A stretch of 64,000 nucleotides of DNA from an uncultured Acidimicrobiales bacterium. GTDB lineage: Bacteria; Actinomycetota; Acidimicrobiia; Acidimicrobiales; CAWCAL01. Position numbers and translations under genes: made by a program. The stretch is from contig CAVOFR010000007.1 of assembly GCA_963695075.1 (NCBI GenBank), positions 1,616,904-1,680,903 on the forward strand, given 5' to 3'. Each line of letters begins with the position of its first letter. The first letter of the stretch is position 1. Below the pieces are notes generated by a model. The model was given only the letters and a program-made list of their open reading frames with translations, was not told the origin of the DNA and did no database searches. Shown here piece after piece: positions 6,781 to 62,136 of the stretch.

Positions 6781-6847
6781 ATATCATATCGATGAGAGGG
6801 GGCGTGGCCTTCTCTCGACGCCAATAACCAAGGTGGGAGTAGTGCAG

Positions 6848-8329: not shown

Positions 8330-8339
8330 GGGGCCGTTC

Positions 8340-9662: not shown

Positions 9663-9699
9663 GGCGTGGAGACCACCGCCAGCAGATGGAGGAGTGCAC

Positions 9700-21579: not shown

Positions 21580-21676
21580 CCGGCCCCTTTCGGTGGTTCG
21601 CCCCACTCTACCGGCCGGACCGGGGCGGCCCGAAGGGGACCGTCCGGGGGGCCGCCCGGCGGTCGAATGTCACATG

Positions 21677-21705
21677 TTGACATTACTAGCTCGAATACCT
21701 AGAGT
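21677..21705 (+). promoter_or_regulatory. Candidate housekeeping-type promoter TTGACA-17 nt-TAGAGT upstream of Mo-enzyme alpha-1
   Basis: Consensus -35 hexamer at 21677-21682, a 17-nt spacer, and a TANNNT-type -10 at 21700-21705, inside the only AT-rich patch of the 182-nt intergenic region. Confidence 0.5.
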
Positions 21706-21761: not shown

Positions 21762-24545
21762 ATGAGTGCCTCGACGGGTCAGGCCGGCACCGAGGCGTCC
21801 TACAGCCGTCGATGGACCTGGGACCGGGTCGCCTGGGGGACCCACTGCCTCAACTGCCTGGCCACCTGTCCCTACCGCGTCTTCGTACGCGACGGGTCGG
21901 TCGCCTTCGAAGAGGTGGGTGGCACGCTCCCCGTCGTCGAAGCGGGCGTGCCGGACATGAACCCCCTCGGGTGCCAGAAGGGGGCCGCCTGGAGCACCCA
22001 GCTCGACAGCGAAGACCGCATCCTGCACCCGATGCGCCGGGTGGGGGAGCGGGGTTCGGGTCGATGGGAGACGATCAGCTGGGACGAGGCCCTCGAAGAG
22101 GTCGCCGAGGCGCTCGTCGAGGCCATCGACCTCGAGGGACCGGAATCGATCATCTTCGAGGAGACGGTCGAGGGCGGGCTCATGACCCAGGCGCCCTTCC
22201 TGCGCTTCGCCGGCCTGCTGGGTGCCGTCACGCTCGACGCCAACGGCTTGGTCAACGACTTTCCCGTCGGCCAGCACATGACGTTCGGGAAGTTCTCCAG
22301 CGCGAGCAGCGTCGACGACAACTTCCACACCGAGTTGATGCTGTTGTGGCATTCGAACCCCGGCTACACATGGATCCCGTATCACCACTACCTGACCGAG
22401 GCCCGCTATCACGGGGCGCATCTCGTCACCATCGCGCCCGACTACAACGCGACCGCGGTCAGCTCCGACCAGTTCGTGCCCGTCGAGCCCGCCACCGACG
22501 CCGCTCTGGCCCTGGCGATGTGTGCAACGGTGATCGAGGAGGATCTGGCCGACCTGGCGTTCGTCCGGTCCCAGACGGATCTTCCCCTCCTCGTACTGAC
22601 CGAGAACGGCCGGTTCCTCCGGGGTCCCGACGTCGAGGCCGGGCTGGTCGAGGATCAGTTCTACACATGGCATCCCGAGGACGGGCTGACCAGGGCCGAC
22701 CGGGGCAGCCTGCTGTTGGATCACGAACCGGCGCTCGACGGCACCTGGTCGGTCACCCTCGACGACGGTACCGAGGTCGAGGTGACCACGGTGTGGGCGC
22801 TGATGCGGGAGCGTCTCGCGGACTACACGCCAGAACTGGCTTCGGAGATCTGCGGGGTGAACGCCGAGGTGATCCGGGATCTGGCACGCCGGGTGGCGCG
22901 GCAGCGCACCAAGATCCTCGAAGGCTTCAACGCTCCCAAGTACTACCACGGCGACCTCATGGAACGGTCCATGATCCTGTTGCTGGCGCTGACGGGGAAC
23001 TGGGGTCGACCGGGCACCGGTATCCAGGGGCTGGCCCTCGCGGGCCTCGACGGTTACATGCTGTTCTCCATGAAGTCCGCCGCGGGTGTCGATGAGACGG
23101 CTCGGTTGCTCGACGGCATCGACGGGGCGGTCGAGGACCTGCGCGGACGCGATCCCGACCAGTCCGAGGAGATCATCGGCAACCAGCTCCTGCAGATGGC
23201 CGTGGTGTCGGGCACGTCGACACCACCGGTCTTCTTCAACTACCACCACTGCGGGTACGACGACGCGTGGAACCGGGCCGAGTGGTCCGATCCGCACATG
23301 GAGAAGACCTTCGGCGAGTACATGGCCGAGGCGGTCCAGCGCGGTTGGTGGGGAGGCCTGACGCGGCCCGGCCAGGCGACCGATCCCCAGGTGCTGGTCG
23401 TCGTCGGCACCAATCCCCTGCGGCGGGCGCGTGGCGGGCGTACCAAGATGCTGGAGAACCTGTGGCCGAAGCTCGAGAAGGTCGTCGTCGTCGACTTTCG
23501 GATGTCGACCACAGCGCTTCACGCCGACATCGTCCTGCCCGCCGCCATGCACTACGAACGGCCGAACCTCCAGTACGCCATCACCCACACCTTCCGGCTG
23601 ACCTTCGCCGACGAGGTCGTCGAACCACCTGGCGAGGCGCGCACCGAGTGGCAGATCTTCCGGGCCCTGTCAGAGGCGGTGGAGGTGGCTGCAGAGCAAG
23701 CCGGCGTGACCGAGTATCTCGACGGGCGCCGCCAGACCCGCCGCCTCGATGCCGTCGTCGACGGCTTCACCTCCGGTGGCGTGTTCGAGACCGAGGAAGC
23801 CGTGATCGACGAGTGGGTTCGTGACTCCGTCGAGGCCGGAACCCTTCCCCCGGGGACCTCGATCGACAGCTTGCGGGAGGACGGGAGCGTCCGCTTCATC
23901 GGGCTCGGGAACTTCGCGCCCGGTCTCTCGGTCGCCGCTGATGTGGAACCGGACAAGGTCCTCACCTCCTACAAGTGGCACGCCGAGGACGGGATCCCGT
24001 TTCCGACCCTCACGCGGCGGGCGCAGTTCAACATCGATCACCCGTGGTTCCAGGCCGCCGACGAGGCGCTCCCGCGCCACAAGGCGCCGCCGAAGGTGGG
24101 CGGCGAGTACCCGTTCCTGGTCACCAGTGGCCACTCCCGCTGGACCGTGCACTCAATCGCGATGGGCAACCGTGCCGTCCTGGAGACCCACCGCGGGAGG
24201 CCGCTCGTGATCGTGAACACGGGCGAGGCCGCCGATCGCGACATCGCCGACGGAGATTGCGTGCGCGTGTGGAACGACCACGGGGACTACGAGGCGATGG
24301 CAAGGATCAGCGAGCGGGTCCGACCCGGCCAGATGATCGTGTACAACGGGTTCGAACCGCACATGTTCGCCGGGTGGCGAGGGGCCAACGAGGTGGAGCC
24401 GGGCATGGTCAAATGGCTGCACCTGGTCAGCCGGTACGGGCATCTCCGATACTTGCCGTTCGGGTGGCAACCAATTCCGGCTGATCGTGCCGTCTTCGTG
24501 GAAATCGAGAGGGTCCCGGAAGCCGGCCGGCAAGGAGGGGACTGA
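21762..24545 (+). CDS. Molybdopterin oxidoreductase catalytic subunit, type II DMSO-reductase family (EBDH/S25DH-like), alpha-1; no Tat signal
   Basis: 927 aa. FS0 motif THCLNCLATC..NPLGCQKG begins about 27 residues from the N-terminus. Candidate Mo-ligand Asp166 in GLVNDFPVGQHMTFG. Paralogous to three other genes in the window. Confidence 0.85.
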   Translation: MSASTGQAGTEASYSRRWTWDRVAWGTHCLNCLATCPYRVFVRDGSVAFEEVGGTLPVVEAGVPDMNPLGCQKGAAWSTQLDSEDRILHPMRRVGERGSGRWETISWDEALEEVAEALVEAIDLEGPESIIFEETVEGGLMTQAPFLRFAGLLGAVTLDANGLVNDFPVGQHMTFGKFSSASSVDDNFHTELMLLWHSNPGYTWIPYHHYLTEARYHGAHLVTIAPDYNATAVSSDQFVPVEPATDAALALAMCATVIEEDLADLAFVRSQTDLPLLVLTENGRFLRGPDVEAGLVEDQFYTWHPEDGLTRADRGSLLLDHEPALDGTWSVTLDDGTEVEVTTVWALMRERLADYTPELASEICGVNAEVIRDLARRVARQRTKILEGFNAPKYYHGDLMERSMILLLALTGNWGRPGTGIQGLALAGLDGYMLFSMKSAAGVDETARLLDGIDGAVEDLRGRDPDQSEEIIGNQLLQMAVVSGTSTPPVFFNYHHCGYDDAWNRAEWSDPHMEKTFGEYMAEAVQRGWWGGLTRPGQATDPQVLVVVGTNPLRRARGGRTKMLENLWPKLEKVVVVDFRMSTTALHADIVLPAAMHYERPNLQYAITHTFRLTFADEVVEPPGEARTEWQIFRALSEAVEVAAEQAGVTEYLDGRRQTRRLDAVVDGFTSGGVFETEEAVIDEWVRDSVEAGTLPPGTSIDSLREDGSVRFIGLGNFAPGLSVAADVEPDKVLTSYKWHAEDGIPFPTLTRRAQFNIDHPWFQAADEALPRHKAPPKVGGEYPFLVTSGHSRWTVHSIAMGNRAVLETHRGRPLVIVNTGEAADRDIADGDCVRVWNDHGDYEAMARISERVRPGQMIVYNGFEPHMFAGWRGANEVEPGMVKWLHLVSRYGHLRYLPFGWQPIPADRAVFVEIERVPEAGRQGGD

Positions 24546-26026
24546 TGCCCGATCTGGAGTTCACGTCTGCGTCGCGGCCCGAGCCGACGCCGCTCCCTCT
24601 CAGTGCGGACGAGCAGGCGGCGATCGCCCGGGCGTTCGAGGGCCCCTCGTCGCTCTTCTCCAACCTGAGCACCCTGCGGACGCGCCGGGTCGGCCTCGGT
24701 TACCAGATCGAGACCGGCGAGCCCGAGACGTTCGAGTGGTCGAGCGGCCAGACCGTCACCCAGGCGGTCGGTCCGTTGGCCTACGCGTCGCCCTCCGACC
24801 CGGTACCGCTGTCGGAGGTCGAAGAAGCGCTACTGGCCTGGGCGGCTCTGGGCCCCAACGGCGTCGCACTCGCCGACATCCCGGTCCAGGGCGGCCTGTC
24901 GGGAATGCTGTCGTGGGCGGGGCGCACGATCCCCGCTTCGTCGAATGACCTCTCCGTCGACCTTTTCGTCATCAACGACGAGGGCGTGTGGCGGTACCGG
25001 CCCGACCCCGAGCGGCTCGCACCCGTCGAGATAGCCGGGCCGGACGACTACTGGAAGATCCTCCACTGGTATCGCGAGAACCGCGTGAAGGTCGCCGATG
25101 CTCGTCCTGATGTCGGCTGGTTCAGCGCTCCCGAGGGCACGCACAGTGTCAACGCCATGGGACCGGGGCAGTACAACCTCAACCGTCCGGGTAGCACGTG
25201 GTTCCTCCCCGTCGGCGACCTCGGGCTCGAGTGGTACAACATGTTGCTCAGCTCCTATGAGTGGTCGGGCTTCTACCTGATGGATCCCGACACCCAGAAG
25301 GCGGCGGGCGTCGAGGAGTACATCCGGCCGGGCTTCCTGGAGGTCGGGTTCCCGATCCCGGTGTTCGACGACCTGGTCCGGCTTCTTCACGCCAGCCAGG
25401 TCGGGTGCGCGGTCCAGAATCTCCGGCTGGCGGCCGAGGCGCTCGGCCTGGGCGCCTGGCCGATGGGCTCGTACGCCGACGACCTGGTTCTCGGTGCCTA
25501 CCCGGATGTGGCCACCGGGCTCGGTTTCGATTTCCTCGAGCGTGACCCGGACCGGAACCCCGCGTTCACCACCACCTGTCTCGGCAAGCCCGGTGTGAAG
25601 GAGCCGGTCGTCGTACCCTCGCCTCAGTTCCCGACCGCGGCGGATGCGGTCACCTACGTCAAGTCGCTGCGGTACGGGCCCGGCGGTCATCTGAGTCGGG
25701 AGGCGAACTGGGCCGAACGGAACGAGGGTCCCTACCGACCCGAGGTCATGCGGGACATCCTCGAGCACCCGAAGAGCCACATCTCCGAGTGGGTCGAAAA
25801 GGCGGCCGTCGCCACCGTCGAGCACATCGTCGAGAAGTACGGATGCTGCCCGGCCTGGATCGACCCGGTGCGGGCCAAGTTCTCGGTCCAGGTACACCAC
25901 GTAGACGTGGAGTGGTACCGGCGGTTCACGGTGGGCGACGATCGACCGTACGCGGTCACCAAGGCCATTGCCGAGCACTTCGCGGACTGGCACCCCGACC
26001 GGCCCGATCCCACGGGAGGGGCGTGA
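24545..26026 (+). CDS. Large nitroreductase-superfamily-like protein (function unknown)
   Basis: 493 aa. The ATG overlaps the alpha-1 TGA. Nitroreductase-like segments LSEVEEALLAWAALGPNG and VGCAVQNLRLAAEALGLGAWPMG. Assignment is by motif only. Confidence 0.5.
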   Translation: MPDLEFTSASRPEPTPLPLSADEQAAIARAFEGPSSLFSNLSTLRTRRVGLGYQIETGEPETFEWSSGQTVTQAVGPLAYASPSDPVPLSEVEEALLAWAALGPNGVALADIPVQGGLSGMLSWAGRTIPASSNDLSVDLFVINDEGVWRYRPDPERLAPVEIAGPDDYWKILHWYRENRVKVADARPDVGWFSAPEGTHSVNAMGPGQYNLNRPGSTWFLPVGDLGLEWYNMLLSSYEWSGFYLMDPDTQKAAGVEEYIRPGFLEVGFPIPVFDDLVRLLHASQVGCAVQNLRLAAEALGLGAWPMGSYADDLVLGAYPDVATGLGFDFLERDPDRNPAFTTTCLGKPGVKEPVVVPSPQFPTAADAVTYVKSLRYGPGGHLSREANWAERNEGPYRPEVMRDILEHPKSHISEWVEKAAVATVEHIVEKYGCCPAWIDPVRAKFSVQVHHVDVEWYRRFTVGDDRPYAVTKAIAEHFADWHPDRPDPTGGA

Positions 26027-26556
26027 TGGAGACCGAGCTCGTGCGGGTGTTGGCCGCGTGGCTGCACGCCCTCGGCGTGGCGACCTACGTGGGAGGGGCG
26101 ATCATCATGGAGTTCGTCGTCGGCCCGGCCCAGAAGGCCATCCCGCCCGCCCAGGCGCAGGTCATGGGCAAGAAGGCGGCGGACCGGTTTCTCTGGTTCG
26201 CATGGGGATCGTTGGGTCTGATCGCCGTCTCGGGTCTACTGCGCCTGTTCTCCACCAACGCCGAGAAGCTGTTGTTCGGCTCCGCGGCGTTTGACGTCTC
26301 GCTCGGACGGACCTATCTCGTGAAGTCCGTCCTGTGGTTGGTGCTGGTGGTGAACGGCCTGATCATCACATTCGTGCTCAGGCCGAAGCTGTCGGCGCGG
26401 TCCGGGTCGGGTACGTCGGCCACCCAGGCTCAGTCCCATCAGCAGGACCAGGTCCGCGCCGCGAACCGGATACTGTGGCTGACCCGAGTCGACCTGGCGG
26501 TCGCCGTCGTGTTGGTGCTGCTCGGTTCGTCACTCGGGTTCGGTGGATTCCTCTGA
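26026..26556 (+). CDS. 4-TM integral membrane protein (DUF4149/CopD-like topology), paralog 1
   Basis: Internal ATG at 26026 of ORF 25789..26556, overlapping the previous TGA. Four hydrophobic stretches. N-terminus LAAWLHALGVATYVGGAIIMEFVVGPAQ matches the next gene. Confidence 0.6.
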   Translation: METELVRVLAAWLHALGVATYVGGAIIMEFVVGPAQKAIPPAQAQVMGKKAADRFLWFAWGSLGLIAVSGLLRLFSTNAEKLLFGSAAFDVSLGRTYLVKSVLWLVLVVNGLIITFVLRPKLSARSGSGTSATQAQSHQQDQVRAANRILWLTRVDLAVAVVLVLLGSSLGFGGFL

Positions 26557-26574
26557 GCGGGGACGAGGTTCCTC

Positions 26575-27111
26575 TTGGACGCTTGGGCATCGGTACTGGC
26601 CGGATTCCACGGCCTCTGCTGGGCGACGTATGTCGGCGGCGCGCTCGTGATGGAGTTCGTCTGGCGTCCCGCACAACAGGACCTTCCCGGGGCGCAGACG
26701 GCCGTGGCCTGTCAGAGGATGGGCTTGCGCTATCGCTGGATCGCCCTGGCGTCGCTCCTCGGCGTCGCGGTGAGTGGGGTCGGGCTGCTGTTCGAGGCCG
26801 GCCACCTCGCTACCTCGGCACCCGTCGTGCGCGAATCGTTGTCGTTGTCGGCCGGCTACGGTCGCACGATGGCGGCGCTCGGTGTGGTCTGGGTCGCTCT
26901 GATGGCCAACCTGGCGTTGCTGACCTTCATCGCTCACCCCGGGCTCCACGTCCGCATGACGACCGATCTCACCGAGTCCGAGATGCGTCGGGCACGCGAA
27001 AAGGTCGGCCGGGCGATCCGCCGGATGGATCGGGTGCTGCGATTCGACCTGGGTCTCGCTCTGCTGGCCATGTTGTTGGGGGCATCGCTACCGTCGGGTG
27101 GCCTGCTGTGA
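26575..27111 (+). CDS. 4-TM integral membrane protein, paralog 2 (tandem duplicate of 26026..26556)
   Basis: LAGFHGLCWATYVGGALVMEFVWRPAQ aligns with paralog 1. TTG start after GACGAGG. Confidence 0.6.
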   Translation: MDAWASVLAGFHGLCWATYVGGALVMEFVWRPAQQDLPGAQTAVACQRMGLRYRWIALASLLGVAVSGVGLLFEAGHLATSAPVVRESLSLSAGYGRTMAALGVVWVALMANLALLTFIAHPGLHVRMTTDLTESEMRRAREKVGRAIRRMDRVLRFDLGLALLAMLLGASLPSGGLL

Positions 27112-27150
27112 GCGCGTGTCGCGCTCGTTCGACCGGGAGGACGTGAGCCG

Positions 27151-28347
27151 ATGCCGAAGACCATCGCCATCACACCGTCGTGGTACTGGCCGACCGGCTG
27201 TCCGCGCGTGACCGGCGTGCCGCCGTTCCGACTCGACGAGATACTGGTCGAGAGGTGGGCGCGTCACCGGCCCGATGAGCCGGCGGTCGTCGACGAGCAT
27301 CAGCGCCTGTCTTTCTCGGAGCTGCTCGCCGTTGTCGACGAGGCGGCGGGGGCGTTGAGGGACCGGGCCGGCGAAGGCCCGGTGGCCTTCTGCGCCGGTC
27401 CGAGCGTCGAAGGGGCGGTGCTCCTGTTGGCCCTGGCGCGCTCCGGTGTGCGCGCCCACTTCCTCGATCCTTCGCTTCCGGCGAGCGCGATACCGGGAGC
27501 GACGATGGCCTGCGCGGACGAGGTCGGGTCGGCGACAGCAGCGGCCGCCGGGCTAGCGGTGTCACGGCTGGCTGACCTGTCGGGATCCGCGTCGACCGGA
27601 GCGTCGTCCCAGCCGGGCACCGGCCTGAACGACCCGGTCGTCGCCGTGGCCGGCGGCGATGACCTCGTGTGGCACTCCAACCGGTCGCTGCTCGCGGGTG
27701 CGGTGTCGCTCGGAACCTTCCTCGGAACCGGGTCCGGCAGGCCATGGCTCAGCACGGCCGCTCCATCCACGTGGGAGGGGATCTACGGTCTGGCCGTGCC
27801 GCTGGCCTCCGGTGTGACAGCGGTCCTGGCGCCACCGGGGGAGGCAGCGCTGGATCTCATGTCGCGCGAAGGAGTCGGCGCTTCCTGTTGGACACTCGAG
27901 GACGCCTTCGCGGCGACTCGCGAGGCCAAGAGGCAGGTCAAGGCGCTCAGGGGGGTTCAGGACTTCATGGTGCTCACCACCGGACGCCTGTTCGACCCCG
28001 ATCAGCGGCGACGGGTGGGGAAGCTGTTCGACACCGCGGCTCTGACCGTGTTCGGCCAGGCCGAGACGGGGCCGATCTTCGCTTCCCATGCCTCCTGGTA
28101 TCTCGACGAATCGGTGGGTATCCCGCTCTCGAACGCGTGGGTCGTCCCGGTCGATCCGCGATCGGGCAACCCGATCCCGACGCTGTGGGAGCTCGTCGAG
28201 TCGGCCATGGTCACCGTGTGGTCCCCTTCCCTGTTCGTCGGCTACGGGGGTGAGGCTCATCCGGAGCGGTTCCGCGACGGCAGGTTCTCGACGGGGATCA
28301 TCGCCAGCTCCGACGCCAACGGCATGATCTACCTGCTGCCCGACTGA
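27151..28347 (+). CDS. Adenylate-forming (ANL/acyl-CoA-synthetase) homolog, degenerate and lacking the C-terminal subdomain
   Basis: 398 aa. ANL-like HRPDEPAVVDEHQRLSFSELL, FGQAETGP (YGxTE-like) and FSTGIIASSDANGMIYLLPD, then a stop. No SGTTGxPKG P-loop; the corresponding stretch reads VAVAGGDDLVWHSN. Confidence 0.55.
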   Translation: MPKTIAITPSWYWPTGCPRVTGVPPFRLDEILVERWARHRPDEPAVVDEHQRLSFSELLAVVDEAAGALRDRAGEGPVAFCAGPSVEGAVLLLALARSGVRAHFLDPSLPASAIPGATMACADEVGSATAAAAGLAVSRLADLSGSASTGASSQPGTGLNDPVVAVAGGDDLVWHSNRSLLAGAVSLGTFLGTGSGRPWLSTAAPSTWEGIYGLAVPLASGVTAVLAPPGEAALDLMSREGVGASCWTLEDAFAATREAKRQVKALRGVQDFMVLTTGRLFDPDQRRRVGKLFDTAALTVFGQAETGPIFASHASWYLDESVGIPLSNAWVVPVDPRSGNPIPTLWELVESAMVTVWSPSLFVGYGGEAHPERFRDGRFSTGIIASSDANGMIYLLPD

Positions 28348-28360
28348 GCCAGGTGGCGAT

Positions 28361-28975
28361 TCAGCCCGCCTGCGGTCGAGCGGTCCCGCCGTGATACGAA
28401 AAGCGGGCCTCGAGCGCCTCCCACTGGGCCGTGGTGATGGGATGGCGCGGCGGGTAGTGGCGGCGGGTGAGCTCGTCGAGCAGTGGCCCGTCGGTGGGGA
28501 CGAGCTCGCTGGACGACCACCTCACGAGAGCGAGCACGAAGGCGGCGAAACGCTGTTCGGGAGCCGGCTCCCGGGAGAGCAGCGGCTCGCAGAGATCCAC
28601 CGCTCGCTCGAGGCTGGCCTGGTGGGCCACCCAGAGGGACCGCTGGGGGTCTTCGGACCCACCGGCGAACCGGGCCCAGGCCGCGACGATGCCCGACGAT
28701 CGCTCGTCGACGTCGCAGACCGATGCCGCCTCGATGTCGGCCACCATGAGCCCGTTGACCGCGGACCACCATCGCGAGCCGGGCACCCGCCCCGAGTCGA
28801 TCTCCCAGTCCTGGAACTCGATCAGGGCCCGGCCGAGGCCGGGGGCCCGGCGTCCCGTCCCGGGGAACCGGCCGAAGAACCTCGTCATGGCGTCGCGCCG
28901 ACGCTCTGCGGGCAGCGCGGCGGCATCCTCGACCGCACGACAGGTGCCGCTCCGGCTGGTATCGTTCGGCTTCAT
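28361..28975 (-). CDS. Hypothetical protein (no recognisable domain)
   Basis: 204-aa ORF with strong third-position GC bias, divergent from the Rrf2 gene. I recognised no motif. Confidence 0.5.
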   Translation of the reverse strand: MKPNDTSRSGTCRAVEDAAALPAERRRDAMTRFFGRFPGTGRRAPGLGRALIEFQDWEIDSGRVPGSRWWSAVNGLMVADIEAASVCDVDERSSGIVAAWARFAGGSEDPQRSLWVAHQASLERAVDLCEPLLSREPAPEQRFAAFVLALVRWSSSELVPTDGPLLDELTRRHYPPRHPITTAQWEALEARFSYHGGTARPQAG

Positions 28976-29049: not shown

Positions 29050-29484
29050 TTGCGGCTGACCCTTACCAGACGGGGCGAGTACGGGGTCCGGCTCGTCCTG
29101 CACCTGGCGGCGCAGCCTCCCGGCACTCGTATGACAGCGGCCGCGATAGGGCGAGCATGTGAGATCCCCGCGGGAAACGTGCCCACGATCGTGAACGTTC
29201 TGTCGCGTGCGGGGATCCTGTCGTGCAACCCGGGGCGCAAGGGGGGCTGCACGCTGGCGCGTGAACCCGCCCAGATCACGATCCTGGACGTCGTCGAGGC
29301 GCTCGAGGGCTCGTTCGACGCCCCCAACTGCCTGCTCGATTCCCGGCGGTGCCACGACCACGACCCCGAGTGCGCCGTGCACGTGGCGTGGTCCGAGGGT
29401 CGCAGCGCTGCACTCGCCGCGTTGGCCGACACTTCGCTGGCCGACGCAGTCGAGCGCGAACGTGAGATCGCCGCCCGGGGCTGA
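29050..29484 (+). CDS. Rrf2-family (IscR/NsrR-like) transcriptional regulator with three clustered Cys
   Basis: LTRRGEYGVRLVLHLA..MTAAAIGRACEIPAGNVPTIVNVLSRAGIL winged-helix region. CLLDSRRCHDHDPEC (C-x6-C-x6-C). TTG start. Confidence 0.8.
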   Translation: MRLTLTRRGEYGVRLVLHLAAQPPGTRMTAAAIGRACEIPAGNVPTIVNVLSRAGILSCNPGRKGGCTLAREPAQITILDVVEALEGSFDAPNCLLDSRRCHDHDPECAVHVAWSEGRSAALAALADTSLADAVEREREIAARG

Positions 29485-29547
29485 GCCCCTCGTCGCCGGT
29501 GGGACGGTCCCCGGGTCGTGGCCCGTTCCCCGTGTGACAAATGCCCG

Positions 29548-29576
29548 TTGCCCTGGCATGCAACCATCGTTATGAT
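29548..29576 (+). promoter_or_regulatory. Candidate promoter TTGCCC-17 nt-TATGAT upstream of alpha-2, overlapped by inverted repeat ATCGT-N10-ACGAT (29566..29585)
   Basis: Hexamers and spacing read directly. The repeat straddles the -10 element, and the site is 40 nt upstream of the GTG start at 29616. Confidence 0.45.
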
Positions 29577-29615
29577 CGCTACGATTTCTCATCTTGTCGA
29601 TGGAAGGGGCCCGTC

Positions 29616-32444
29616 GTGAGTGTGGCACCAACGTCCGCGCAGGAGACGCGTAGCGGCGAGCAGACGTACCGGTCGCGTTGGACGTGGGATTCGGTTGCGT
29701 ACGGAACCCATTGCGTGGACTGCTACCCCGGCAATTGCTCTTACAAGGTCTACGTGCGCGACGGCCGGGTCCTGCGCGAGGAGCCGGCGGCCCGTTTCGG
29801 AACTCTCGAGGAGGGTGTGCCCGACTTCAATCCGATGGGGTGCAACAAGGGTGCGGCGTGGAGCCAGCAGCTCTACGACGGGGATCGCCTGCTCCATCCG
29901 TTGCGCCGAGTGGGGGAGCGGGGCTCGGGCGAGTGGGAGCAGATCAGCTGGGACGAGGCCTGTACCGAGATCGCCGATGCAATGCTCGACGCCATCGAGG
30001 CCGGCGGCCCCGAGGACATCGCCCGGGAAGGTACGCCCGAGATCGCCACCGTGGTTCCGACGGACCGTTTCTTCAACGTCTTCGGCGGCCGGGCCATGGA
30101 CCTGCACGCCTCCTTCAACGACTTCTCCATCGGGCTGCACGAGACCTTCGGCAAGTTCTGTCCCGTGTCGTCGGCCGACGACTGGTTCAAGTCCGAGCTC
30201 ATCCTCATCTGGCACATGAATCCCGCGTACACGCGGATCCCGATCTACCACTTCATGAACGAAGCGCGGTACCACGGCGCCGAGGTCGTCTCGATCTCCC
30301 CGGACCTGAACGCGTCGCACATGCACGCCGACATCCACGTTCCGATGACGTCGGGCAACGACGTCCCGTTCGCGTTGGCCATGGTGCAGGTCATCCTCGA
30401 AGAGGGGATCGCGGACGAGACGTTCATGCGTGAGCAGACCGACCTGCCCCTGCTGGTACGCACCGACACGGCGCGCTATCTCCGCCAGACCGACGTCGAG
30501 GGCGAGGGAGGCGGCGCCCTCGAGGACCAGCTCTACCAGTGGGACCCCGATGCCGGCCTGATGAAGGCCGACCGGGGCGACCTCCACCTGCACGGCCGTG
30601 CGGTGGCCCTGGACGGCAAGTACGAAGTGACGCTGCACGACGGGACACAGGCCGAGGTGGAGCCGGTCCTGGCCCGCCTCCGTCGGATGATCGACGCCGA
30701 CTACACGCCGGAGAAACAGCAGGCGATCACCTCGGTGCATCCGGACGTGGTTCGCCGCATAGCTCGGAAAGCGGCCACCAGTCGCACCAACATCATGTTG
30801 GGCTGGAACTCGTGCAAGTACTTCCACGGGGACCTGATCGAGCGATCGATGTGTCTGCTTCTGGCGGTGATCGGCAGCTGGGGCAAGCACGGCACGGGGA
30901 TCCGGTCCTGGACCGCCGGGATGATGGACGGTCAGGGCATGATCATGATGAAGGAGGCGCCCGGGCTGGAGGGCACCGAGCAGATCGTCAGCGCGCGCGA
31001 CACCGCCGTCGAGGCGATGCAGGCCATGGACCCGACCCTCACCGAGGAATTGGCGTCGCGAGCTATGGGCCGAGCTCTCATCCAGGCCACCGAGGGCGCC
31101 GCCGGAGGGTTCGGCGGCCCTGCCAGCGGTTCCGAGCCGTCGGTCGAGGCCTTCTGGTGGTACAACCACGCCGGTTTCGCCGAACGATGGAACACCCCGG
31201 GTTGGGGTGACGATTCGCTGCCCCGGAGCTTCGACGACTACTACAACGAAGCCATCGAGAGCGGGTGGTGGACCGGGCTCGACGGCCCCAAGCCCGAGCA
31301 TCCGCCCAAGGTGCTGATCGAATGCGGCGGCAACATGATCCGTCGTACCCGCGGGGGCAGGACGATCCTGTTGGACAGCTTGTGGCCCAAGCTCGACCTG
31401 ATCGTCTCGATCGATTTCCGGATCAGCGGCACCGGGCTGCACTCCGACATCCTCCTGCCCGCGGCGCAGCACTACGAGAAACTCGGCTACCACATCCCGA
31501 CGCCGCACCAGATGGTGTTGACGTTCTCGGACAAGGCGGCCGAGCCGGCGGGCGAGGCTCTGTCCGAGTGGGAGATCTATCAGCGGATCCTGAAGAAGCT
31601 CTCCGAACGTGCCGCAGACCGCGGGATCGAGGAGTACAAGAGCCGCAACGGACAGAAGTTCAAGACGGCTGACCTGTGGGAGCGCTACACGCTCGACGGA
31701 TACATGGCCGACGAGGAGGCGATGGCCGACGAGCTGGTTCGGGACGCGGCGTACATCGGTGTCGTCGACGAGACCACGTCGCTCGAGACCATGCGCGAAG
31801 AGGGTCAGGTGCGTCTCACCGGCTGGGGCATGTCGTCCTTCGCTCTGGCGCAGGCGTCACCGTTGGAGAAGGACCGTACCCACGTGCCGTTCCGCAACCA
31901 CGTCGAGCTGGGGCACCCGTTCCCGACCTACTCGCGGCGGGCCCAGTTCTACATCGACCATCCGTGGTGGCTCGAAGCCGGGGAGGAACTGCCGGTTCAC
32001 AAACCGAACCCGAAGGCCGGGGGAGATCACCCCCTGCGGATGACCTCGGGCCACAACCGGTGGAGCATCCACGCCATGAATCAGGCGAACCCGGTGATCC
32101 TCCAGACCCATCGGGGTGAGCCGTTGGTCGAGATCAGTCCGGGTGACGCCCAGGCCCGAGGGGTCGCTGACAACGACATGATCCGGATCTGGAACGACAT
32201 CGCCGAGTTCCGGTGCCGAGCCAAGGTGATGCCGAGCGTCATGCCCGGCCAGATCATCTCCTACAACGGCTGGGACCCGCATCAGTACCAGAACTGGGAT
32301 GGAGCCAACGAGATCGAGGCGGGGATGGTCAAGTGGATCGCCTTTGCCGGCGGCTACGGGCACATCAGCTACTCGCAGGCCGAGTGGCAGCCGATCCCCA
32401 CAGATCGCGGGGTCCCGTGCGACTTCGAGAGAGTTGAGGGATGA
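29616..32444 (+). CDS. Molybdopterin oxidoreductase catalytic subunit, EBDH/S25DH-like, alpha-2; no Tat signal
   Basis: GTG 29616 after GGAAGGGG, within ORF 29541..32444. Motifs: THCVDCYPGNC..NPMGCNKG. Candidate Mo-ligand Asp169 in ASFNDFSIGLHETFG. 942 aa. Confidence 0.85.
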   Translation: MSVAPTSAQETRSGEQTYRSRWTWDSVAYGTHCVDCYPGNCSYKVYVRDGRVLREEPAARFGTLEEGVPDFNPMGCNKGAAWSQQLYDGDRLLHPLRRVGERGSGEWEQISWDEACTEIADAMLDAIEAGGPEDIAREGTPEIATVVPTDRFFNVFGGRAMDLHASFNDFSIGLHETFGKFCPVSSADDWFKSELILIWHMNPAYTRIPIYHFMNEARYHGAEVVSISPDLNASHMHADIHVPMTSGNDVPFALAMVQVILEEGIADETFMREQTDLPLLVRTDTARYLRQTDVEGEGGGALEDQLYQWDPDAGLMKADRGDLHLHGRAVALDGKYEVTLHDGTQAEVEPVLARLRRMIDADYTPEKQQAITSVHPDVVRRIARKAATSRTNIMLGWNSCKYFHGDLIERSMCLLLAVIGSWGKHGTGIRSWTAGMMDGQGMIMMKEAPGLEGTEQIVSARDTAVEAMQAMDPTLTEELASRAMGRALIQATEGAAGGFGGPASGSEPSVEAFWWYNHAGFAERWNTPGWGDDSLPRSFDDYYNEAIESGWWTGLDGPKPEHPPKVLIECGGNMIRRTRGGRTILLDSLWPKLDLIVSIDFRISGTGLHSDILLPAAQHYEKLGYHIPTPHQMVLTFSDKAAEPAGEALSEWEIYQRILKKLSERAADRGIEEYKSRNGQKFKTADLWERYTLDGYMADEEAMADELVRDAAYIGVVDETTSLETMREEGQVRLTGWGMSSFALAQASPLEKDRTHVPFRNHVELGHPFPTYSRRAQFYIDHPWWLEAGEELPVHKPNPKAGGDHPLRMTSGHNRWSIHAMNQANPVILQTHRGEPLVEISPGDAQARGVADNDMIRIWNDIAEFRCRAKVMPSVMPGQIISYNGWDPHQYQNWDGANEIEAGMVKWIAFAGGYGHISYSQAEWQPIPTDRGVPCDFERVEG

Positions 32445-32445
32445 C

Positions 32446-33027
32446 ATGGAGCTGAAGCAATCCGATGGCGATCTCACATCGCCCGACGGCGACGGATGGT
32501 CCGAGGTGGAGGCCAGCGAGGTGACGTTGGCGCCGATACCCCTCGACGCCCAGCCCACCGAGTACATAAGGAACGCGTGGGCCGACCGTGGTTACGGGAC
32601 CGTCGGCCGGGCTTCGGTCGCGACAGCGCGCGCCGGCGATCAGGCTTTCGTGCGGATCGCCTGGGACGATCCGAGCGACGAGCACACCGAGTTCCATGAC
32701 GCGGCCGGCGTGTATTTCGGGGAGTCCGATTCCCCGGCCGCGACCATCGGAAGCGAATCGGCTCCGGTCGATCTGTGGTACTGGCAGGCGAACCTCGATG
32801 ACCCGAAGGGCCTGGTGGCCACCGGGCCGGGACGCTTCCGACCCAGCGAGTCCGAGGTCGGGGCGTCGGCGTCGCTGGAAGGCGGCCGCTGGACGGTCGT
32901 GTTGAGCGGCAGCCTCGATGGCCTCGGCTCCAACCTGGGTGTGGCCGTCTGGAACGGAACGAACGAGGAACGGGCGGGTATCGGCGCGGCGACCGCCGAC
33001 TGGGTCTCGCTGGAAATCGACCGATGA
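32446..33027 (+). CDS. EB_dh-type gamma subunit homolog (normally heme b binding); no signal peptide and no internal Met
   Basis: Internal ATG at 32446 of ORF 32299..33027. Family-typical VDLWYWQAN and VAVWNGTNEER. The position between alpha and beta supports the call. Confidence 0.65.
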   Translation: MELKQSDGDLTSPDGDGWSEVEASEVTLAPIPLDAQPTEYIRNAWADRGYGTVGRASVATARAGDQAFVRIAWDDPSDEHTEFHDAAGVYFGESDSPAATIGSESAPVDLWYWQANLDDPKGLVATGPGRFRPSESEVGASASLEGGRWTVVLSGSLDGLGSNLGVAVWNGTNEERAGIGAATADWVSLEIDR

Positions 33028-33040
33028 GGGAGGGCTCGAA

Positions 33041-34126
33041 ATGACCACGAGTGTGATGAAGCCGGAGTCGGGACCGATGCGACAGATCGCAATGGTGTTC
33101 GACCTGAACAAGTGCATGGGTTGCCAGGCGTGTTCGGTCGGTTGCAAGGTGCTGTGGACCCAGGAAGAGGGTGAAGAGCACCAGTGGTGGATGACCGTCA
33201 ACACCAAGCCCGGTCTGGGCACACCGAAGGGCTGGGAGGAGATGGGTGGCGGTGTCCACGGAGGCGAGCCGGTGCCGGGCCACCAGCCGACCCGTGCGGA
33301 GTTCGGCGGCGGCTGGGACTTCAACTATCAAGAGGTGTTCTACGGGGGCAAGGGCAACTCGGTACATCTCAAGCCCGAGGACAAGGGTGACGGAACGACC
33401 GAGTGGGGCATGAACTGGGACGAGGATCAAGGCGGCGGTGAGTACCCCAACGCCTACTACTTCTATCTTCCCCGCCTCTGCAACCACTGCACCCGGCCCG
33501 TGTGCGCCGAGGCGTGCCCCACGGGGGCCATGTACAAGCGCAGGGAGGACGGCATCGTCCTGCGCAACGAGGACGTGTGCCAGGGATCCCGGTTCTGCAT
33601 GGAGGCGTGCCCGTACAAGAAGATCTACTTCAACTACGCGCGGAACGTCGCCCAGCACTGCATCATGTGTTTCCCACGGCTCGAAGAGGGAGTCGCTCCG
33701 GTATGCGCCCGGCAGTGTCCGGGACGTCTCGCGTTCGTCGGGTACCTCGACGACGAGGAAGGGCCGATCCACAAGCTCGTGAACGAGTGGGGCGTGGCCC
33801 TGCCTCTCCACTCCGAGCACGGAACCGGTCCCAACATCTTCTACGTGCCACCGCTGGCGCCGCACCGGCTGAACGAGGACATGTCGATCGACTACGAGAC
33901 CCCGCGGATTCCGCCGGAGTACCTCGAGTCGCTCTTCGGGCCGAAGGTCCACACCGCCCTCGAGACGATCCAGTCCGAGCTCGAGACGGTACGCGGCGGC
34001 GGCTCTTCGGAGATCCTCGATACGCTCATCGTCTACCAATGGCAGGACCTGTTCGGGCCCTTCACGAACGATCCGGCTGATCTGGACCGGCCGCCGTCGA
34101 GCGTCCCGGTCGAGTTGAGGAGCTGA
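33041..34126 (+). CDS. Fe-S beta subunit (NarH/EbdB-like, four cluster motifs)
   Basis: CMGCQACSVGCK; CNHCTRPVCAEACP; CQGSRFCMEACPYKK; CIMCFPRLEEGVAPVCARQCPGR. At 361 aa it is EbdB/DdhB/SerB-sized rather than NarH-sized. Confidence 0.85.
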   Translation: MTTSVMKPESGPMRQIAMVFDLNKCMGCQACSVGCKVLWTQEEGEEHQWWMTVNTKPGLGTPKGWEEMGGGVHGGEPVPGHQPTRAEFGGGWDFNYQEVFYGGKGNSVHLKPEDKGDGTTEWGMNWDEDQGGGEYPNAYYFYLPRLCNHCTRPVCAEACPTGAMYKRREDGIVLRNEDVCQGSRFCMEACPYKKIYFNYARNVAQHCIMCFPRLEEGVAPVCARQCPGRLAFVGYLDDEEGPIHKLVNEWGVALPLHSEHGTGPNIFYVPPLAPHRLNEDMSIDYETPRIPPEYLESLFGPKVHTALETIQSELETVRGGGSSEILDTLIVYQWQDLFGPFTNDPADLDRPPSSVPVELRS

Positions 34127-34135
34127 GGTACCGAC

Positions 34136-34795
34136 ATGTTCGCCTATTCCCTGAGCGGCCTCGAGATCTCCGACGACGCCGGCGGCGTCACCGAGGTCGA
34201 GGAGAACGAGATCACAGCCCGCAGCGCCGTCTACCAGGTGCTGGGCCGGATCTTCACCGCGCCCGACACCGAGCACTACGAGATGGCCGGCAACGGGCAG
34301 TGGGTCAAGGAGCTCACCGAGGCGGCGGCTCTGCTCGACTTCGAGTGGGACATCGGTGAGTTCGCGCTGCCCGACGAGGCCGACAAGGCGGCCCACGTCG
34401 CCGAGTACGACCGGCTCTTCCTGGTGGCGAGTGGCGATGGAAAGCGCATCTGGGGCGGTGCGCGGGCCGATGACCGCGATCAGATGTTGACCGAGCTGGG
34501 CCGTTCCTATGAGTACTACGGCCTCGGTGGGGCCGGCGAGGACGTGCCGCTCGACCATCTCACCGCCGAGCTCGACTTCATGCAGTTCCTGACGTTCAAG
34601 GAGGCCGCTGCTTCGTCGCCCCGACTCGGCCGATCGTTCCGGCGGGCGCAGGTCGACTTCCTGGCCAAGCAGCTCGATTGGGTGACGGCGCTCGCCGCCG
34701 AGGCCAGGGACGACGACCCGTCGGTCTTCTGGGCGTGGGCCCTCGATCGGCTCGAGTCATTCCTCGAAGCGGACACCGAGGCCGCCGCCGGGTAG
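34136..34795 (+). CDS. TorD/NarJ-family maturation chaperone (delta subunit)
   Basis: 219 aa, acidic. SAVYQVLGRIFTAPD..EYDRLF..DHLTAELDFMQFL is typical of the family. It is the last gene of the alpha-gamma-beta-delta operon. Confidence 0.7.
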   Translation: MFAYSLSGLEISDDAGGVTEVEENEITARSAVYQVLGRIFTAPDTEHYEMAGNGQWVKELTEAAALLDFEWDIGEFALPDEADKAAHVAEYDRLFLVASGDGKRIWGGARADDRDQMLTELGRSYEYYGLGGAGEDVPLDHLTAELDFMQFLTFKEAAASSPRLGRSFRRAQVDFLAKQLDWVTALAAEARDDDPSVFWAWALDRLESFLEADTEAAAG

Positions 34796-38887: not shown

Positions 38888-38952
38888 CGCGCTTCTCCTC
38901 GGTCGGGTGACGGTTGGCAGGGCCATGTCAGGGACTGCAATATGATCGGTCC

Positions 38953-41989: not shown

Positions 41990-42003
41990 CGGCCGGGCGC
42001 AGG

Positions 42004-44736: not shown

Positions 44737-44797
44737 GACGTGTCCCTTCCCGATCAGCTGCGATCGTAGGGCAGTTTCGAAGGTGCCACGGAAGGCT

Positions 44798-51533: not shown

Positions 51534-51615
51534 CGTTGCCCCCTCGCCCGGAACCAGAGCTTGTATGGCTCCAGTATATGCGCCGAAAGCTTTCTGGGAA
51601 GGAACCTCGTCGGCC

Positions 51616-62115: not shown

Positions 62116-62136
62116 TCCCTCCGCCAGGAACAAGCC

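What the first reader, a model, noticed from the sequence alone, without database searches (positions are those of the whole stretch)
21762..28347. Alpha-1 is translationally coupled to a nitroreductase-like protein, two 4-TM paralogs and a truncated ANL protein: a possible new electron-transfer module
Seen in the sequence:
- Five co-directional genes have ATGA stop/start overlaps at 24543-24547 and 26024-26028. The remaining gaps are 18 and 39 nt.
- The genes are a Mo-bisPGD alpha, a 493-aa protein with nitroreductase-superfamily-like motifs, two paralogous 4-TM proteins, and a degenerate adenylate-forming homolog.
- No beta or gamma gene follows this alpha.

Inference: the flavoprotein-like partner and the membrane pair may replace the usual beta/gamma(heme) wire. 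They could link a cytoplasmic Mo hydroxylase to the quinone pool or to another acceptor. I know of no described type II DMSO-reductase-family enzyme with such partners. This is an argument from gene context only.
Basis: inference. Interest (0 to 1): 0.85.

Follow-up and report, generated by a model that had tools for sequence, protein, structure and literature searches.

The report
Conserved partner genes of cytoplasmic molybdenum hydroxylase
A molybdenum hydroxylase gene of the ethylbenzene/steroid-C25 dehydrogenase type is always followed by the same four uncharacterised genes in Actinomycetota and Chloroflexota, which points to a new, untested way of wiring this enzyme class to the membrane.

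Summary
Five co-directional genes sit at 21762-28347: an EbdA/S25DH-like Mo-bisPGD alpha, a 493-aa nitroreductase-fold protein (X493), two paralogous CopD-type 4-TM proteins, and a catalytically dead ANL N-domain. They are joined by TGATG stop/start overlaps and by 18- and 39-nt gaps.

The order is conserved in every related locus with enough flank, in two sets. One was selected by X493 (about 31 genome loci). The other was selected by alpha-1 (23 of 23 orthologs at 56% identity or more). None of 52 loci with more distant alpha paralogs carries these genes.

The claim that the partners replace beta/gamma is only partly supported. The window has four alpha paralogs but one gamma-beta-delta set, 5 kb downstream. 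In Chloroflexota the order is alpha2-gamma-beta-delta-alpha1-X493-TMA-TMB-ANL on one strand, so alpha-1 most likely shares beta, as S25DH isoenzymes do.

However, the module-linked gamma has lost the Lys heme ligand of EbdC in 31 of 32 lineages, and usually the Met ligand too. Gammas of paralogous systems keep them. No alpha-1 ortholog has a Tat signal.

Best reading, by inference: X493 plus the membrane pair form an alternative, membrane-bound electron exit or anchor for a cytoplasmic hydroxylase. This is a new variant of a known kind, with no biochemistry behind it.

The parts
21677..21705 (+). Sigma-70-like promoter candidate (TTGACA-17-TAGAGT), 57 nt upstream of alpha-1. It overlaps a perfect inverted repeat, ATGTCA-N5-TGACAT, at 21667-21683.
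   Evidence: It is the only + strand promoter-like site ahead of the five genes. The palindrome is not conserved in related loci.
21762..24545 (+). [quoted passage not shown]
   Evidence: 2ivf_A, E 2e-210. One search shows the Mo-ligand Asp in VNDFPVG and the FS0 motif H-x3-C-x3-C. An in-frame TGA lies 9 nt upstream of the ATG. None of 48 orthologs has a Tat-like motif.
24545..26026 (+). X493: 493-aa soluble protein with a nitroreductase-superfamily fold. It is a probable flavoprotein. There is no invariant Cys and no Pfam family above threshold.
   Evidence: Homologs are 57-88% identical and all annotated 'hypothetical'. The family is small: 570 representatives among 1.84 billion proteins.
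26026..26556 (+). TMA: CopD-family 4-TM protein. It has an invariant His15 in TM1 and an invariant cytoplasmic loop, GPAQ..IPPAQAQVMG.
   Evidence: PF05425, 34.8 bits against a cut-off of 32.1. Also (pLDDT 91, four long helices; positive-inside topology).
26575..27111 (+). TMB: paralog of TMA with a TTG start. Invariant residues are His12, Cys46 and His121.
   Evidence: 33% identity, E 5e-23. Also.
27151..28347 (+). ANL*: N-terminal domain of an adenylate-forming (ANL) enzyme. It lacks the P-loop, the A7 Asp and the C-terminal domain. The N-terminus PKTIAITPSWYWP is invariant.
29541..32444 (+). alpha-2: paralogous Mo-bisPGD alpha (46% identical to alpha-1). It heads the only gamma-beta-delta set of the window. 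The true start is probably downstream of 29541.
32446..33027 (+). gamma: EB_dh-family subunit. It has no signal peptide, and both EbdC heme ligands are replaced (Met108 to Ile101, Lys201 to Gly180).
33041..34126 (+). beta: four-cluster Fe-S subunit (DMSO_red_II_bet / EbdB-like). It is the only copy in the window.
34136..34795 (+). delta: NarJ/EbdD-type assembly chaperone. It is the only copy in the window.

Best explanation
The five genes are one conserved operon module. It belongs to a cytoplasmic, S25DH/EBDH-type molybdenum hydroxylase system of single-membrane bacteria (Acidimicrobiia and other Actinomycetota, Chloroflexota).

- alpha-1 is a working catalytic subunit. It has the Mo-ligand Asp and the FS0 cluster motif.
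- It most likely pairs with the shared Fe-S beta subunit and the delta chaperone encoded with alpha-2. Several S25DH alphas share beta/gamma in this way in Sterolibacterium.
- The classical electron exit (gamma heme b to periplasmic cytochrome c) is unavailable. The enzyme has no Tat signal, and the associated gamma has lost its heme ligands.
- I infer that X493, a nitroreductase-fold and probably flavin-binding protein, takes over. It would act with the TMA/TMB heterodimer, two CopD-type 4-TM proteins each with an invariant His in TM1 that may hold a heme or bind quinone.
- Together they would tether the hydroxylase to the membrane and carry its electrons to the quinone pool or another membrane acceptor.
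- The dead ANL N-domain would serve as a scaffold.

Shown here: gene identities, folds, conserved synteny, translational coupling, loss of the gamma heme ligands, and absence of a Tat signal.

Inferred only: physical complex formation, flavin and heme binding, the direction and acceptor of electron flow, and the substrate. The substrate is probably an isoprenoid or sterol side chain, judging from the surrounding genes.
For: Synteny:
- alpha1-X493-TMA-TMB-ANL occur in the same order in about 31 genome loci found through X493.
- The same order holds in 23 of 23 metagenome loci found through alpha-1 orthologs at 56% identity or more with downstream flank. It holds in 0 of 52 loci with alpha paralogs at 52% identity or less.

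Translational coupling:
- Stop/start overlaps are conserved: alpha1/X493 in 20 of 30 loci and X493/TMA in 21 of 30. In the window both are TGATG.

Shared beta/gamma/delta:
- The window has only one gamma, one beta and one delta for four alphas.
- Chloroflexota carry alpha2-gamma-beta-delta-alpha1-X493-TMA-TMB-ANL on one strand.
- Shared beta/gamma has a precedent (PMC6016249).

Loss of the classical exit:
- The gamma Lys ligand is lost in 31 of 32 module-linked gammas, and Met is mostly lost too. There is no invariant His, Met, Cys or Lys.
- Non-module gammas keep Met/Lys (24) or Met/His (7).
- None of 48 alpha-1 orthologs has a Tat motif.

Partner proteins:
- X493 has a nitroreductase fold.
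- Distant X493 relatives also sit next to multi-TM proteins and lipid-binding SRPBCC proteins. One is fused to a heme-dependent MpaB/Lcp oxygenase domain.
- TMA and TMB share an invariant His in TM1 and a conserved cytoplasmic loop.
- From my own knowledge, not tested here: HemJ, which I recall as belonging to the same CopD-like superfamily, is a b-type heme protein (Skotnicova 2018, cited in PMC11662147).
Against: - No direct evidence shows that any of the four partners binds a cofactor or contacts alpha-1, beta or gamma.
- X493 is coupled to alpha-1 rather than to beta/gamma. That is not what one would most simply expect of an acceptor for the beta/gamma end of the wire.
- alpha-2 would use the same heme-less gamma without a partner set of its own.
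- One module-bearing locus (L069) keeps a Met/Lys gamma.
- Many paralogous alphas without the module also lack Tat signals (98 of 116). Cytoplasmic location alone therefore does not require the module.
- The TMA model has no significant structural match to any cytochrome b (best Foldseek E 0.8).
- CopD proteins are annotated as copper transporters.
- The invariant His lies near the outer face by the positive-inside rule, far from a cytoplasmic donor.
- Delivering electrons from a hydroxylation with a midpoint near 0 V to menaquinone would be thermodynamically tight (my own knowledge).
Confidence: 0.4

Rival explanations
1. X493 is a substrate-converting flavoenzyme, not a wire. It would be a SagB/McbC/AlbA-like dehydrogenase or desaturase acting on the same hydrophobic substrate just before or after alpha-1. 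It might make an allylic double bond that alpha-1 then hydroxylates, or oxidise the alcohol product. TMA/TMB would anchor it at the membrane and take its electrons.
For: - The nearest sequence and fold relatives include AlbA, McbC, ThcOx and BmdC, all FMN dehydrogenases that introduce double bonds.
- The strict coupling to one alpha orthogroup, rather than to beta/gamma, fits consecutive steps on one substrate.
- The known anaerobic sterol pathway alternates a desaturation or dehydration step with Mo-dependent allylic hydroxylation (PMC7411048, PMC11061730).
- Distant X493 relatives neighbour lipid-binding SRPBCC proteins, and one is fused to an isoprenoid-cleaving oxygenase domain.
Against: - It does not explain the loss of the gamma heme ligands.
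- The window already encodes many CtmAB/delta-24-desaturase-like flavoprotein pairs for such steps.
- No active-site motif of the SagB/McbC class was identified. Similarity is limited to the central helix-strand motif.
Confidence: 0.25
2. alpha-1 works without beta and gamma. Its FS0 cluster passes electrons directly to the flavin of X493, and from there to the TMA/TMB pair and the quinone pool.
For: - The alpha-1/X493 overlap is conserved.
- In Microthrixaceae loci L002 and L003 no beta/gamma gene lies within 10 kb of the module.
- From my own knowledge: direct electron transfer between FS0 and a flavoprotein has a precedent in flavodoxin-dependent assimilatory nitrate reductases.
Against: - gamma-beta-delta lie directly upstream of alpha-1 in all Chloroflexota loci, and 5 kb downstream here.
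- alpha-1 is 46-48% identical to paralogs that must use that beta.
- Shared beta/gamma is the documented solution in this enzyme clade.
- X493 has no Fe-S motif.
Confidence: 0.12
3. The four partners are accessory factors rather than redox subunits. They would handle maturation, metal or cofactor supply, or extraction of the substrate from the membrane. For example, a CopD-like transporter pair would work with a pseudo-ANL and a nitroreductase-fold chaperone.
For: - CopD family members are annotated as copper transporters.
- Maturation genes are also coupled to alpha-1: delta in Chloroflexota and MobB in Microthrixaceae.
- ANL* is catalytically dead.
Against: - High sequence conservation (57-88% for X493 across phyla) and 1:1 translational coupling are more typical of structural subunits.
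- The alpha paralogs do without these factors.
- No known Mo-enzyme maturation step uses such proteins (my own knowledge).
Confidence: 0.1

Closest known systems
Steroid C25/C26 dehydrogenases (S25DH1-4, S26DH) of Sterolibacterium denitrificans
   Same: - The alpha is an EBDH-clade type II DMSO reductase alpha.
- There are several alpha paralogs but fewer beta/gamma sets, so beta/gamma are shared (PMC6016249).
- The gene order is gamma before beta.
- A delta chaperone is present.
- The genomic context has thiolase/DUF35, ACAD, ECH and CtmAB/delta-24-desaturase-like flavoprotein genes.
   Different: - The S25DH enzymes are periplasmic, with a Tat signal and a heme b gamma.
- Here there is no Tat signal on any alpha-1 ortholog and the gamma heme ligands are lost.
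- Here there are four extra conserved genes that have no counterpart in Sterolibacterium. Homolog searches found X493 and TMA mostly in Actinomycetota and Chloroflexota MAGs, apart from a few MAGs labelled Gammaproteobacteria, Pseudomonadales or Acidobacteria.
Ethylbenzene dehydrogenase EbdABC(D) (PDB 2ivf)
   Same: - It is the best solved relative of alpha-1 (E 2e-210), beta and gamma.
- The Mo-ligand Asp223 and the FS0 motif are conserved.
   Different: - The active-site His192 is not conserved (Thr in alpha-1).
- EbdC Met108 and Lys201 are replaced in the local gamma.
- This system is cytoplasmic, not periplasmic.
- This system has additional partner genes.
Respiratory nitrate reductase NarGHI
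   Same: This is a functional analogy only. NarGHI is a cytoplasm-facing type II alpha-beta unit that docks on an integral membrane subunit, which links the Fe-S wire to the quinone pool.
   Different: - TMA/TMB are CopD-type 4-TM proteins, not NarI (5 TM, two hemes).
- No homology was detected.
- NarGHI has no flavoprotein or ANL-like subunit.
- Electron flow here would run from substrate to quinone.
Nitroreductase superfamily, especially the double-size or dehydrogenase members (ThcOx, McbC, SagB, BmdC, AlbA; 3eo7)
   Same: - The fold matches (Foldseek E down to 1.7e-5).
- The central helix-strand motif VGCAVQNLRLAAEALGLGAW is shared.
- The size is about 460-490 aa, as in ThcOx and 3eo7.
   Different: - X493 scores below the Pfam and TIGRFAM thresholds.
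- The family is a separate small group with no annotation.
- No RiPP or NRPS context is present.
- It is linked to membrane proteins and a Mo enzyme.
CopD / HemJ-like 4-TM membrane protein superfamily
   Same: - All 18 members tested match PF05425 at E of 1 or less (best E 5e-11), with weaker DUF4149 and DUF2214 matches. Only TMA was shown to exceed the Pfam cut-off.
- There is an invariant His in TM1. From my own knowledge, HemJ has one that ligates heme b.
   Different: - These are a dedicated heterodimeric pair found only in this module.
- No CopC partner or copper-resistance context is present.
- Heme or copper binding is untested.

Membership tests
Type II DMSO reductase family, EBDH/S25DH clade (alpha-1) | Mo-bisPGD binding domains (Molybdopterin plus Molydop_binding) and a full-length match to the type II alpha model. 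| tested here: met
   PF00384 E 4e-37 and PF01568 E 2e-14. TIGR03479 E 5e-249, although at 829 bits it is below the curated cut-off of 985; 2ivf_A E 2e-210.
Type II DMSO reductase family, EBDH/S25DH clade (alpha-1) | Aspartate ligand to Mo (EbdA Asp223) and the FS0 [4Fe-4S] motif H-x3-C-x3-C...C. | tested here: met
   Asp aligned in VNDFPVG. The motif H28-x3-C32-x3-C36 is present, and C71 lies in NPLGCQKG.
Type II DMSO reductase family, EBDH/S25DH clade (alpha-1) | N-terminal twin-arginine signal and periplasmic location, as in all characterised hydroxylases of the clade. | tested here: not met
   an in-frame stop lies 9 nt upstream of the ATG; the alignment to EbdA starts at its residue 59; none of 48 orthologs has an RR motif. 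PMC10100899 lists EbdA, CmdA and S25dA as periplasmic.
Type II DMSO reductase family, EBDH/S25DH clade (holoenzyme) | Alpha-beta-gamma complex whose gamma carries heme b with Met/Lys ligation. | tested here: not met
   The gamma is present (PF09459), but Met108 is replaced by Ile and Lys201 by Gly. The Lys is lost in 31 of 32 module-linked gammas. Actual heme content is not testable here.
Nitroreductase superfamily (X493) | Alpha+beta nitroreductase fold. | tested here: met
   all five hits with E of 0.001 or less, and nearly all of the top 50, are nitroreductase-superfamily structures. TM-scores are low (0.2 normalised by query, about 0.5 by target) because the query is twice the domain size.
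Nitroreductase superfamily (X493) | Sequence match above the Pfam PF00881 gathering score. | tested here: not met
   21.8 bits against a cut-off of 23.5, over residues 285-313 only. TIGR03605 scores 19.2 against 78.4.
Nitroreductase superfamily (X493) | Bound FMN. | not testable with these tools
   Invariant Arg45, Arg47, Arg48 and Arg333, and the GLGAW motif, are compatible with flavin binding. No ligand modelling was possible.
CopD family PF05425 (TMA, TMB) | Pfam match above the gathering score. | tested here: met
   TMA scores 34.8 bits against 32.1. TMB alone gave no hit at E of 0.01 or less; all 18 aligned members, including TMB, match CopD at E of 1 or less (best 5e-11).
CopD family PF05425 (TMA, TMB) | Copper transport or resistance role, with a CopC partner. 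| tested here: not met
   No CopC or copper-resistance gene appears in any of the loci examined. Transport itself is not testable.
ANL adenylate-forming superfamily (ANL*) | AMP-binding N-terminal domain. | tested here: met
   PF00501 E 3.5e-22, in two stretches; weak matches to several acyl-CoA synthetase models.
ANL adenylate-forming superfamily (ANL*) | Catalytic motifs: P-loop (T/S)SG(T/S)TGxPK, the A7 (S/T)GD, the hinge, and the C-terminal domain with the A10 Lys. | tested here: not met
   none of 25 family members has a P-loop or [ST]GD. The protein ends at ...YLLPD, before the hinge. The control ANL at 44726-46414 has TSGTTGRAK and SGD.
NarGHI-type membrane-anchored complex | NarI-type di-heme b membrane subunit. 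| tested here: not met
   No NarI-like gene is in the module. The TMA model has no significant match to cytochrome b structures. Only two members give weak Ni_hydr_CYTB hits (best E 0.002).

The most novel reading that the evidence does not exclude
X493, TMA/TMB and the dead ANL domain form a previously unknown membrane-bound flavo-(heme) complex. In single-membrane bacteria it would replace the gamma-heme/cytochrome c exit of EBDH/S25DH-type hydroxylases. That would couple oxygen-independent C-H hydroxylation in the cytoplasm directly to the membrane quinone pool. [quoted passage not shown]
Probability: 0.35. Interest if true: 0.8.

Novelty: new variant of a known kind. Interest (0 to 1): 0.62.

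Why it matters
All characterised hydroxylases of the EBDH clade (EbdABC, CmdABC, S25DH, S26DH) are periplasmic enzymes of Proteobacteria. They hand electrons from a heme b gamma subunit to cytochrome c.

This module marks a widespread, uncultured counterpart in Acidimicrobiia, Thermoleophilia, Dehalococcoidia and Anaerolineae. It is cytoplasmic, has a gamma without heme ligands, and is invariably tied to three protein families with no known function.

If the partners are the electron exit, three things follow:
- It would explain how bacteria without a periplasm run oxygen-independent hydroxylation of sterol-like or isoprenoid substrates.
- It would assign a function to three uncharacterised families.
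- It would give enzyme engineers a quinone-coupled version of a biotechnologically used enzyme class (25-hydroxyvitamin D3 synthesis).

If they are not, the strict co-occurrence still defines a clean, testable gene set.

Tried and rejected
- PDB sequence searches with X493, alone and as a 26-sequence profile, gave only sub-significant hits to the central nitroreductase motif.
- A Foldseek search with the high-confidence TMA model gave no significant match (best E 0.8). Hits were generic four-helix bundles, so no structural support for a cytochrome b was obtained.
- BLASTP of ANL* against the genuine ANL in the window was uninformative. My first P-loop pattern failed on the positive control and had to be relaxed.
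- The palindrome at the promoter (21667-21683) is not conserved upstream of alpha-1 in related Acidimicrobiia loci. I do not count it as an operator.
- I tested for a three-way correlation between the module, loss of heme ligands and cytoplasmic location. It holds only in part, because most paralogous alphas without the module also lack Tat motifs.
- I considered that X493 might be the unidentified 25-phosphosteroid lyase, or related to the delta-24 steroid desaturase. The desaturase is CtmAB-like, with covalent flavin, and so is unrelated. Nothing supports a lyase role.
- I considered F420 as the acceptor, because the two phyla use F420 and a CofD gene lies near L002. I rejected this on thermodynamic grounds (my own knowledge).
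- Three literature searches found no paper on this gene combination. One search was swamped by the disease acronym COPD.

Full report
**Observation**

The window is high in G+C (about 67%). Between 21762 and 28347 it carries five co-directional ORFs with strong third-position GC bias:
- alpha-1: 21762-24545, 927 aa.
- X493: 24545-26026, 493 aa.
- TMA: 26026-26556, 176 aa.
- TMB: 26575-27111, 178 aa, TTG start.
- ANL*: 27151-28347, 398 aa, an ANL-like protein.

The stop TGA and the start ATG share one base. The remaining gaps are 18 and 39 nt. Each start is preceded by a GGAGG-like element. The coordinates and the coupling are correct; only the label 'ATGA' is inexact. A sigma-70-like promoter candidate lies 57 nt upstream of alpha-1.

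**Identities**

- It keeps the Mo-ligand aspartate and the FS0 motif H-x3-C-x3-C.
- It has no room for a Tat signal, because an in-frame stop lies 9 nt upstream of the ATG.

*X493.* It has only a sub-threshold nitroreductase/SagB match over about 30 residues.
- An AlphaFold model built on 26 homologs (pLDDT 76, pTM 0.83) hits almost only nitroreductase-superfamily structures in the PDB. These include 3hj9 (E 1.7e-5), 3hoi and 8cqs, then McbC, ThcOx, BmdC and AlbA.
- It has no invariant cysteine, so an Fe-S cluster is unlikely.

*TMA and TMB.* They are paralogs (33% identity, E 5e-23) of the CopD family.
- The TMA model is a confident four-helix bundle (pLDDT 91). It has no significant structural neighbour.
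- Each protein has an invariant His at the start of TM1. This His is also kept in more distant relatives.
- Loop 1 (GPAQ..IPPAQAQVMG in TMA) is nearly invariant. By the positive-inside rule it faces the cytoplasm.

*ANL\*.* It is an AMP-binding N-domain.
- In all 25 family members examined it lacks the P-loop and the A7 (S/T)GD motif. It stops before the hinge and C-terminal domain.
- A genuine ANL elsewhere in the window has TSGTTGRAK and SGD.
- Its N-terminus PKTIAITPSWYWP is invariant.

**Conserved linkage**

X493 homologs are 57-88% identical across Acidimicrobiia, other Actinomycetota, Dehalococcoidia and Anaerolineae, plus a few MAGs labelled Gammaproteobacteria. All are annotated 'hypothetical'.

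*Set 1, selected by X493.* There are 42 species-representative genome loci.
- Every close ortholog with enough flank has alpha1-X493-TMA-TMB-ANL* in that order.
- Seven distant paralogs (28-31% identity) have no Mo-alpha neighbour.
- In five of those seven (L036-L040) the paralog sits beside other multi-TM proteins, and in L037 and L039 beside lipid-binding SRPBCC proteins. L041 and L042 were not examined.

*Set 2, selected by alpha-1.* These are 80 metagenome loci.
- All 23 loci whose alpha is at least 56% identical to alpha-1, and which have downstream DNA, carry X493 next. TMA, TMB and ANL* follow where sequence remains.
- None of 52 loci with alpha paralogs at 52% identity or less has any of the four genes.

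The linkage is therefore specific in both directions. The stop/start overlaps are conserved too: alpha1/X493 in 20 of 30 loci and X493/TMA in 21 of 30.

**Where beta and gamma are**

The window holds four alpha paralogs, 46-48% identical to each other. They lie at 21762-24545 (+), 29541-32444 (+), 36158-39010 (-) and about 41986-44727 (-). There is only one gamma, one beta and one delta.

The gamma (32446-33027, PF09459) was hidden inside an over-extended ORF between alpha-2 and beta.

In Chloroflexota the arrangement is alpha2-gamma-beta-delta-alpha1-X493-TMA-TMB-ANL* on one strand. In Acidimicrobiia the same two blocks are swapped and separated by an Rrf2 regulator gene.

In Sterolibacterium denitrificans there are also fewer beta/gamma genes than alpha genes, and S25DH1 is alpha1-beta3-gamma3 (PMC6016249). 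An alpha without its own beta/gamma is therefore ordinary in this clade. It does not show that beta is replaced.

**An unexpected point in favour of a different electron exit**

Aligned to EbdC (2ivf_C), the local gamma has Ile in place of the heme ligand Met108 and Gly in place of Lys201.
- Across genome loci, all module-linked gammas have Gly or Ala at the Lys position and Met, Leu or Ile at the Met position. They have no invariant His, Met, Cys or Lys at all.
- A second gamma type in the same Chloroflexota keeps Met and usually Lys.
- The metagenome set repeats this. Twelve of 13 module-linked gammas lack both ligands. Non-module gammas are Met/Lys (24) or Met/His (7).
- The exception is L069, a divergent module with a Met/Lys gamma.

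None of 48 alpha-1 orthologs has a Tat-like motif, against 18 of 116 paralogs. A review lists every characterised hydroxylase of this clade as periplasmic (PMC10100899).

**Interpretation**

The best-supported reading is as follows. alpha-1 is a functional cytoplasmic hydroxylase that shares beta, delta and a heme-less gamma with alpha-2. X493 and the TMA/TMB pair provide a membrane anchor and an alternative electron exit. ANL* acts as a scaffold.

What is shown: the genes, the folds, the synteny, the coupling, the gamma ligand loss and the lack of export signals. What is inferred: the complex, its cofactors, the acceptor and the substrate.

Points against:
- X493 is tied to alpha-1 rather than to beta/gamma.
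- alpha-2 would face the same exit problem without its own partners.
- Most cytoplasmic paralogs do without the module.
- The invariant His is predicted near the outer face.
- CopD proteins are known as copper transporters, and nothing shows heme binding.

Rivals:
- *X493 as a SagB/AlbA-like desaturase or dehydrogenase* acting on the same substrate. This would explain the alpha-1-specific coupling, and it fits the alternation of desaturation and allylic hydroxylation in anaerobic sterol degradation (PMC7411048, PMC11061730).
- *A maturation or substrate-delivery role.*

A single representative (P0314) fuses an X493-like domain to an MpaB/Lcp heme-oxygenase domain. This hints at either heme-partner or isoprenoid chemistry for the family.

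**Context**

The surrounding genes include:
- ChsH2-type OB-fold and thiolase-like proteins.
- An enoyl-CoA hydratase, an acyl-CoA dehydrogenase and an ETF subunit.
- Several pairs of roughly 55-65 kDa DAO/amine-oxidase-type flavoproteins.

These pairs resemble the CtmAB/delta-24-steroid-desaturase class. The authors of that work say its closest relatives include Acidimicrobiales proteins. The island therefore looks like an oxygen-independent pathway for sterol-like or isoprenoid side chains. The substrate of alpha-1 itself is unknown.

**Novelty and verdict**

No paper on this gene combination was found.
- X493 belongs to a small unannotated family (570 representatives among 1.84 billion).
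- Nearly all TMA/TMB-type CopD proteins recovered (44-100% identity) resemble the module's own, and the six loci checked lie in the module. The genomic context of most hits was not examined.

This is a new variant of a known enzyme kind. The conserved module and the heme-less gamma are solid. The mechanism is inference from gene context and folds.

Noticed in passing
window 32446-33027 (+): A gamma (EB_dh) gene lies hidden between alpha-2 and beta, inside an over-extended ORF (32299-33027). That ORF overlaps the mis-extended beta ORF. The true beta start is probably the ATG at about 33041, not 32918. The gamma has no signal peptide and lacks both EbdC heme ligands.
   Followed up: yes
window 21762-24545, 29541-32444, 36158-39010 (-), about 41986-44727 (-): The window has four EbdA/S25DH-like alpha paralogs, 46-48% identical to each other. 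It has only one gamma-beta-delta set. None has a recognisable Tat signal.
   Followed up: partly
window 34846-36108 (-): A radical-SAM/SPASM protein with a C-terminal SEC-C motif lies immediately downstream of alpha-3 and convergent with delta. It may be a maturase. Its role is unknown.
   Followed up: no
window 6833-11277 (+), 46404-51665 (-), 60403-63765 (+): Clusters of adjacent 486-651 aa DAO/amine-oxidase-type flavoprotein genes. They are reminiscent of the heterodimeric, covalently flavinylated limonene dehydrogenase CtmAB and delta-24 steroid desaturase class (PMC11061730).
   Followed up: partly
window 21667-21683 (+): A perfect inverted repeat, ATGTCA-N5-TGACAT, overlaps the -35 of the promoter candidate upstream of alpha-1. 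An Rrf2 regulator gene lies at 29050-29484. The repeat is not conserved in related loci.
   Followed up: yes
L002:6586-7185 and L003:6609-7172; L003:726-1637: In Microthrixaceae a MobB gene (molybdopterin-guanine dinucleotide synthesis) ends in a stop/start overlap with alpha-1. This extends the coupled unit to MobB-alpha1-X493-TMA-TMB-ANL*. An ApbE flavin-transferase gene lies nearby in L003, and a CofD gene next to the module in L002.
   Followed up: partly
protein P0314 (863 aa): A single representative fuses an MpaB/Lcp (heme-dependent isoprenoid-cleaving oxygenase) catalytic domain to an X493-like domain. This is a possible Rosetta-stone hint about the family's partner or substrate.
   Followed up: partly
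window 28361-28975 (-): A 204-aa protein with no family match lies convergent with ANL* and divergent from the Rrf2 gene. It is conserved at the same place in several Acidimicrobiia loci (L001, L004, L028, L030, L046).
   Followed up: no
L052:8643-10488: One metagenome locus carries only short X493 and ANL* fragments after alpha-1. It looks like a deletion of most of the partner genes, or an assembly error.
   Followed up: no
window 40412-41989 (+): A 525-aa membrane protein has a weak, sub-threshold match to the NqrB/RnfD family (E 1e-5). It lies between alpha-3 and alpha-4. It could be another candidate membrane redox partner.
   Followed up: no
L004, L005, L028, L030: Several MAG loci show the module genes broken into many frame-shifted pieces. 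These are most likely assembly or indel errors rather than pseudogenes. They inflate the apparent intergenic distances.
   Followed up: no
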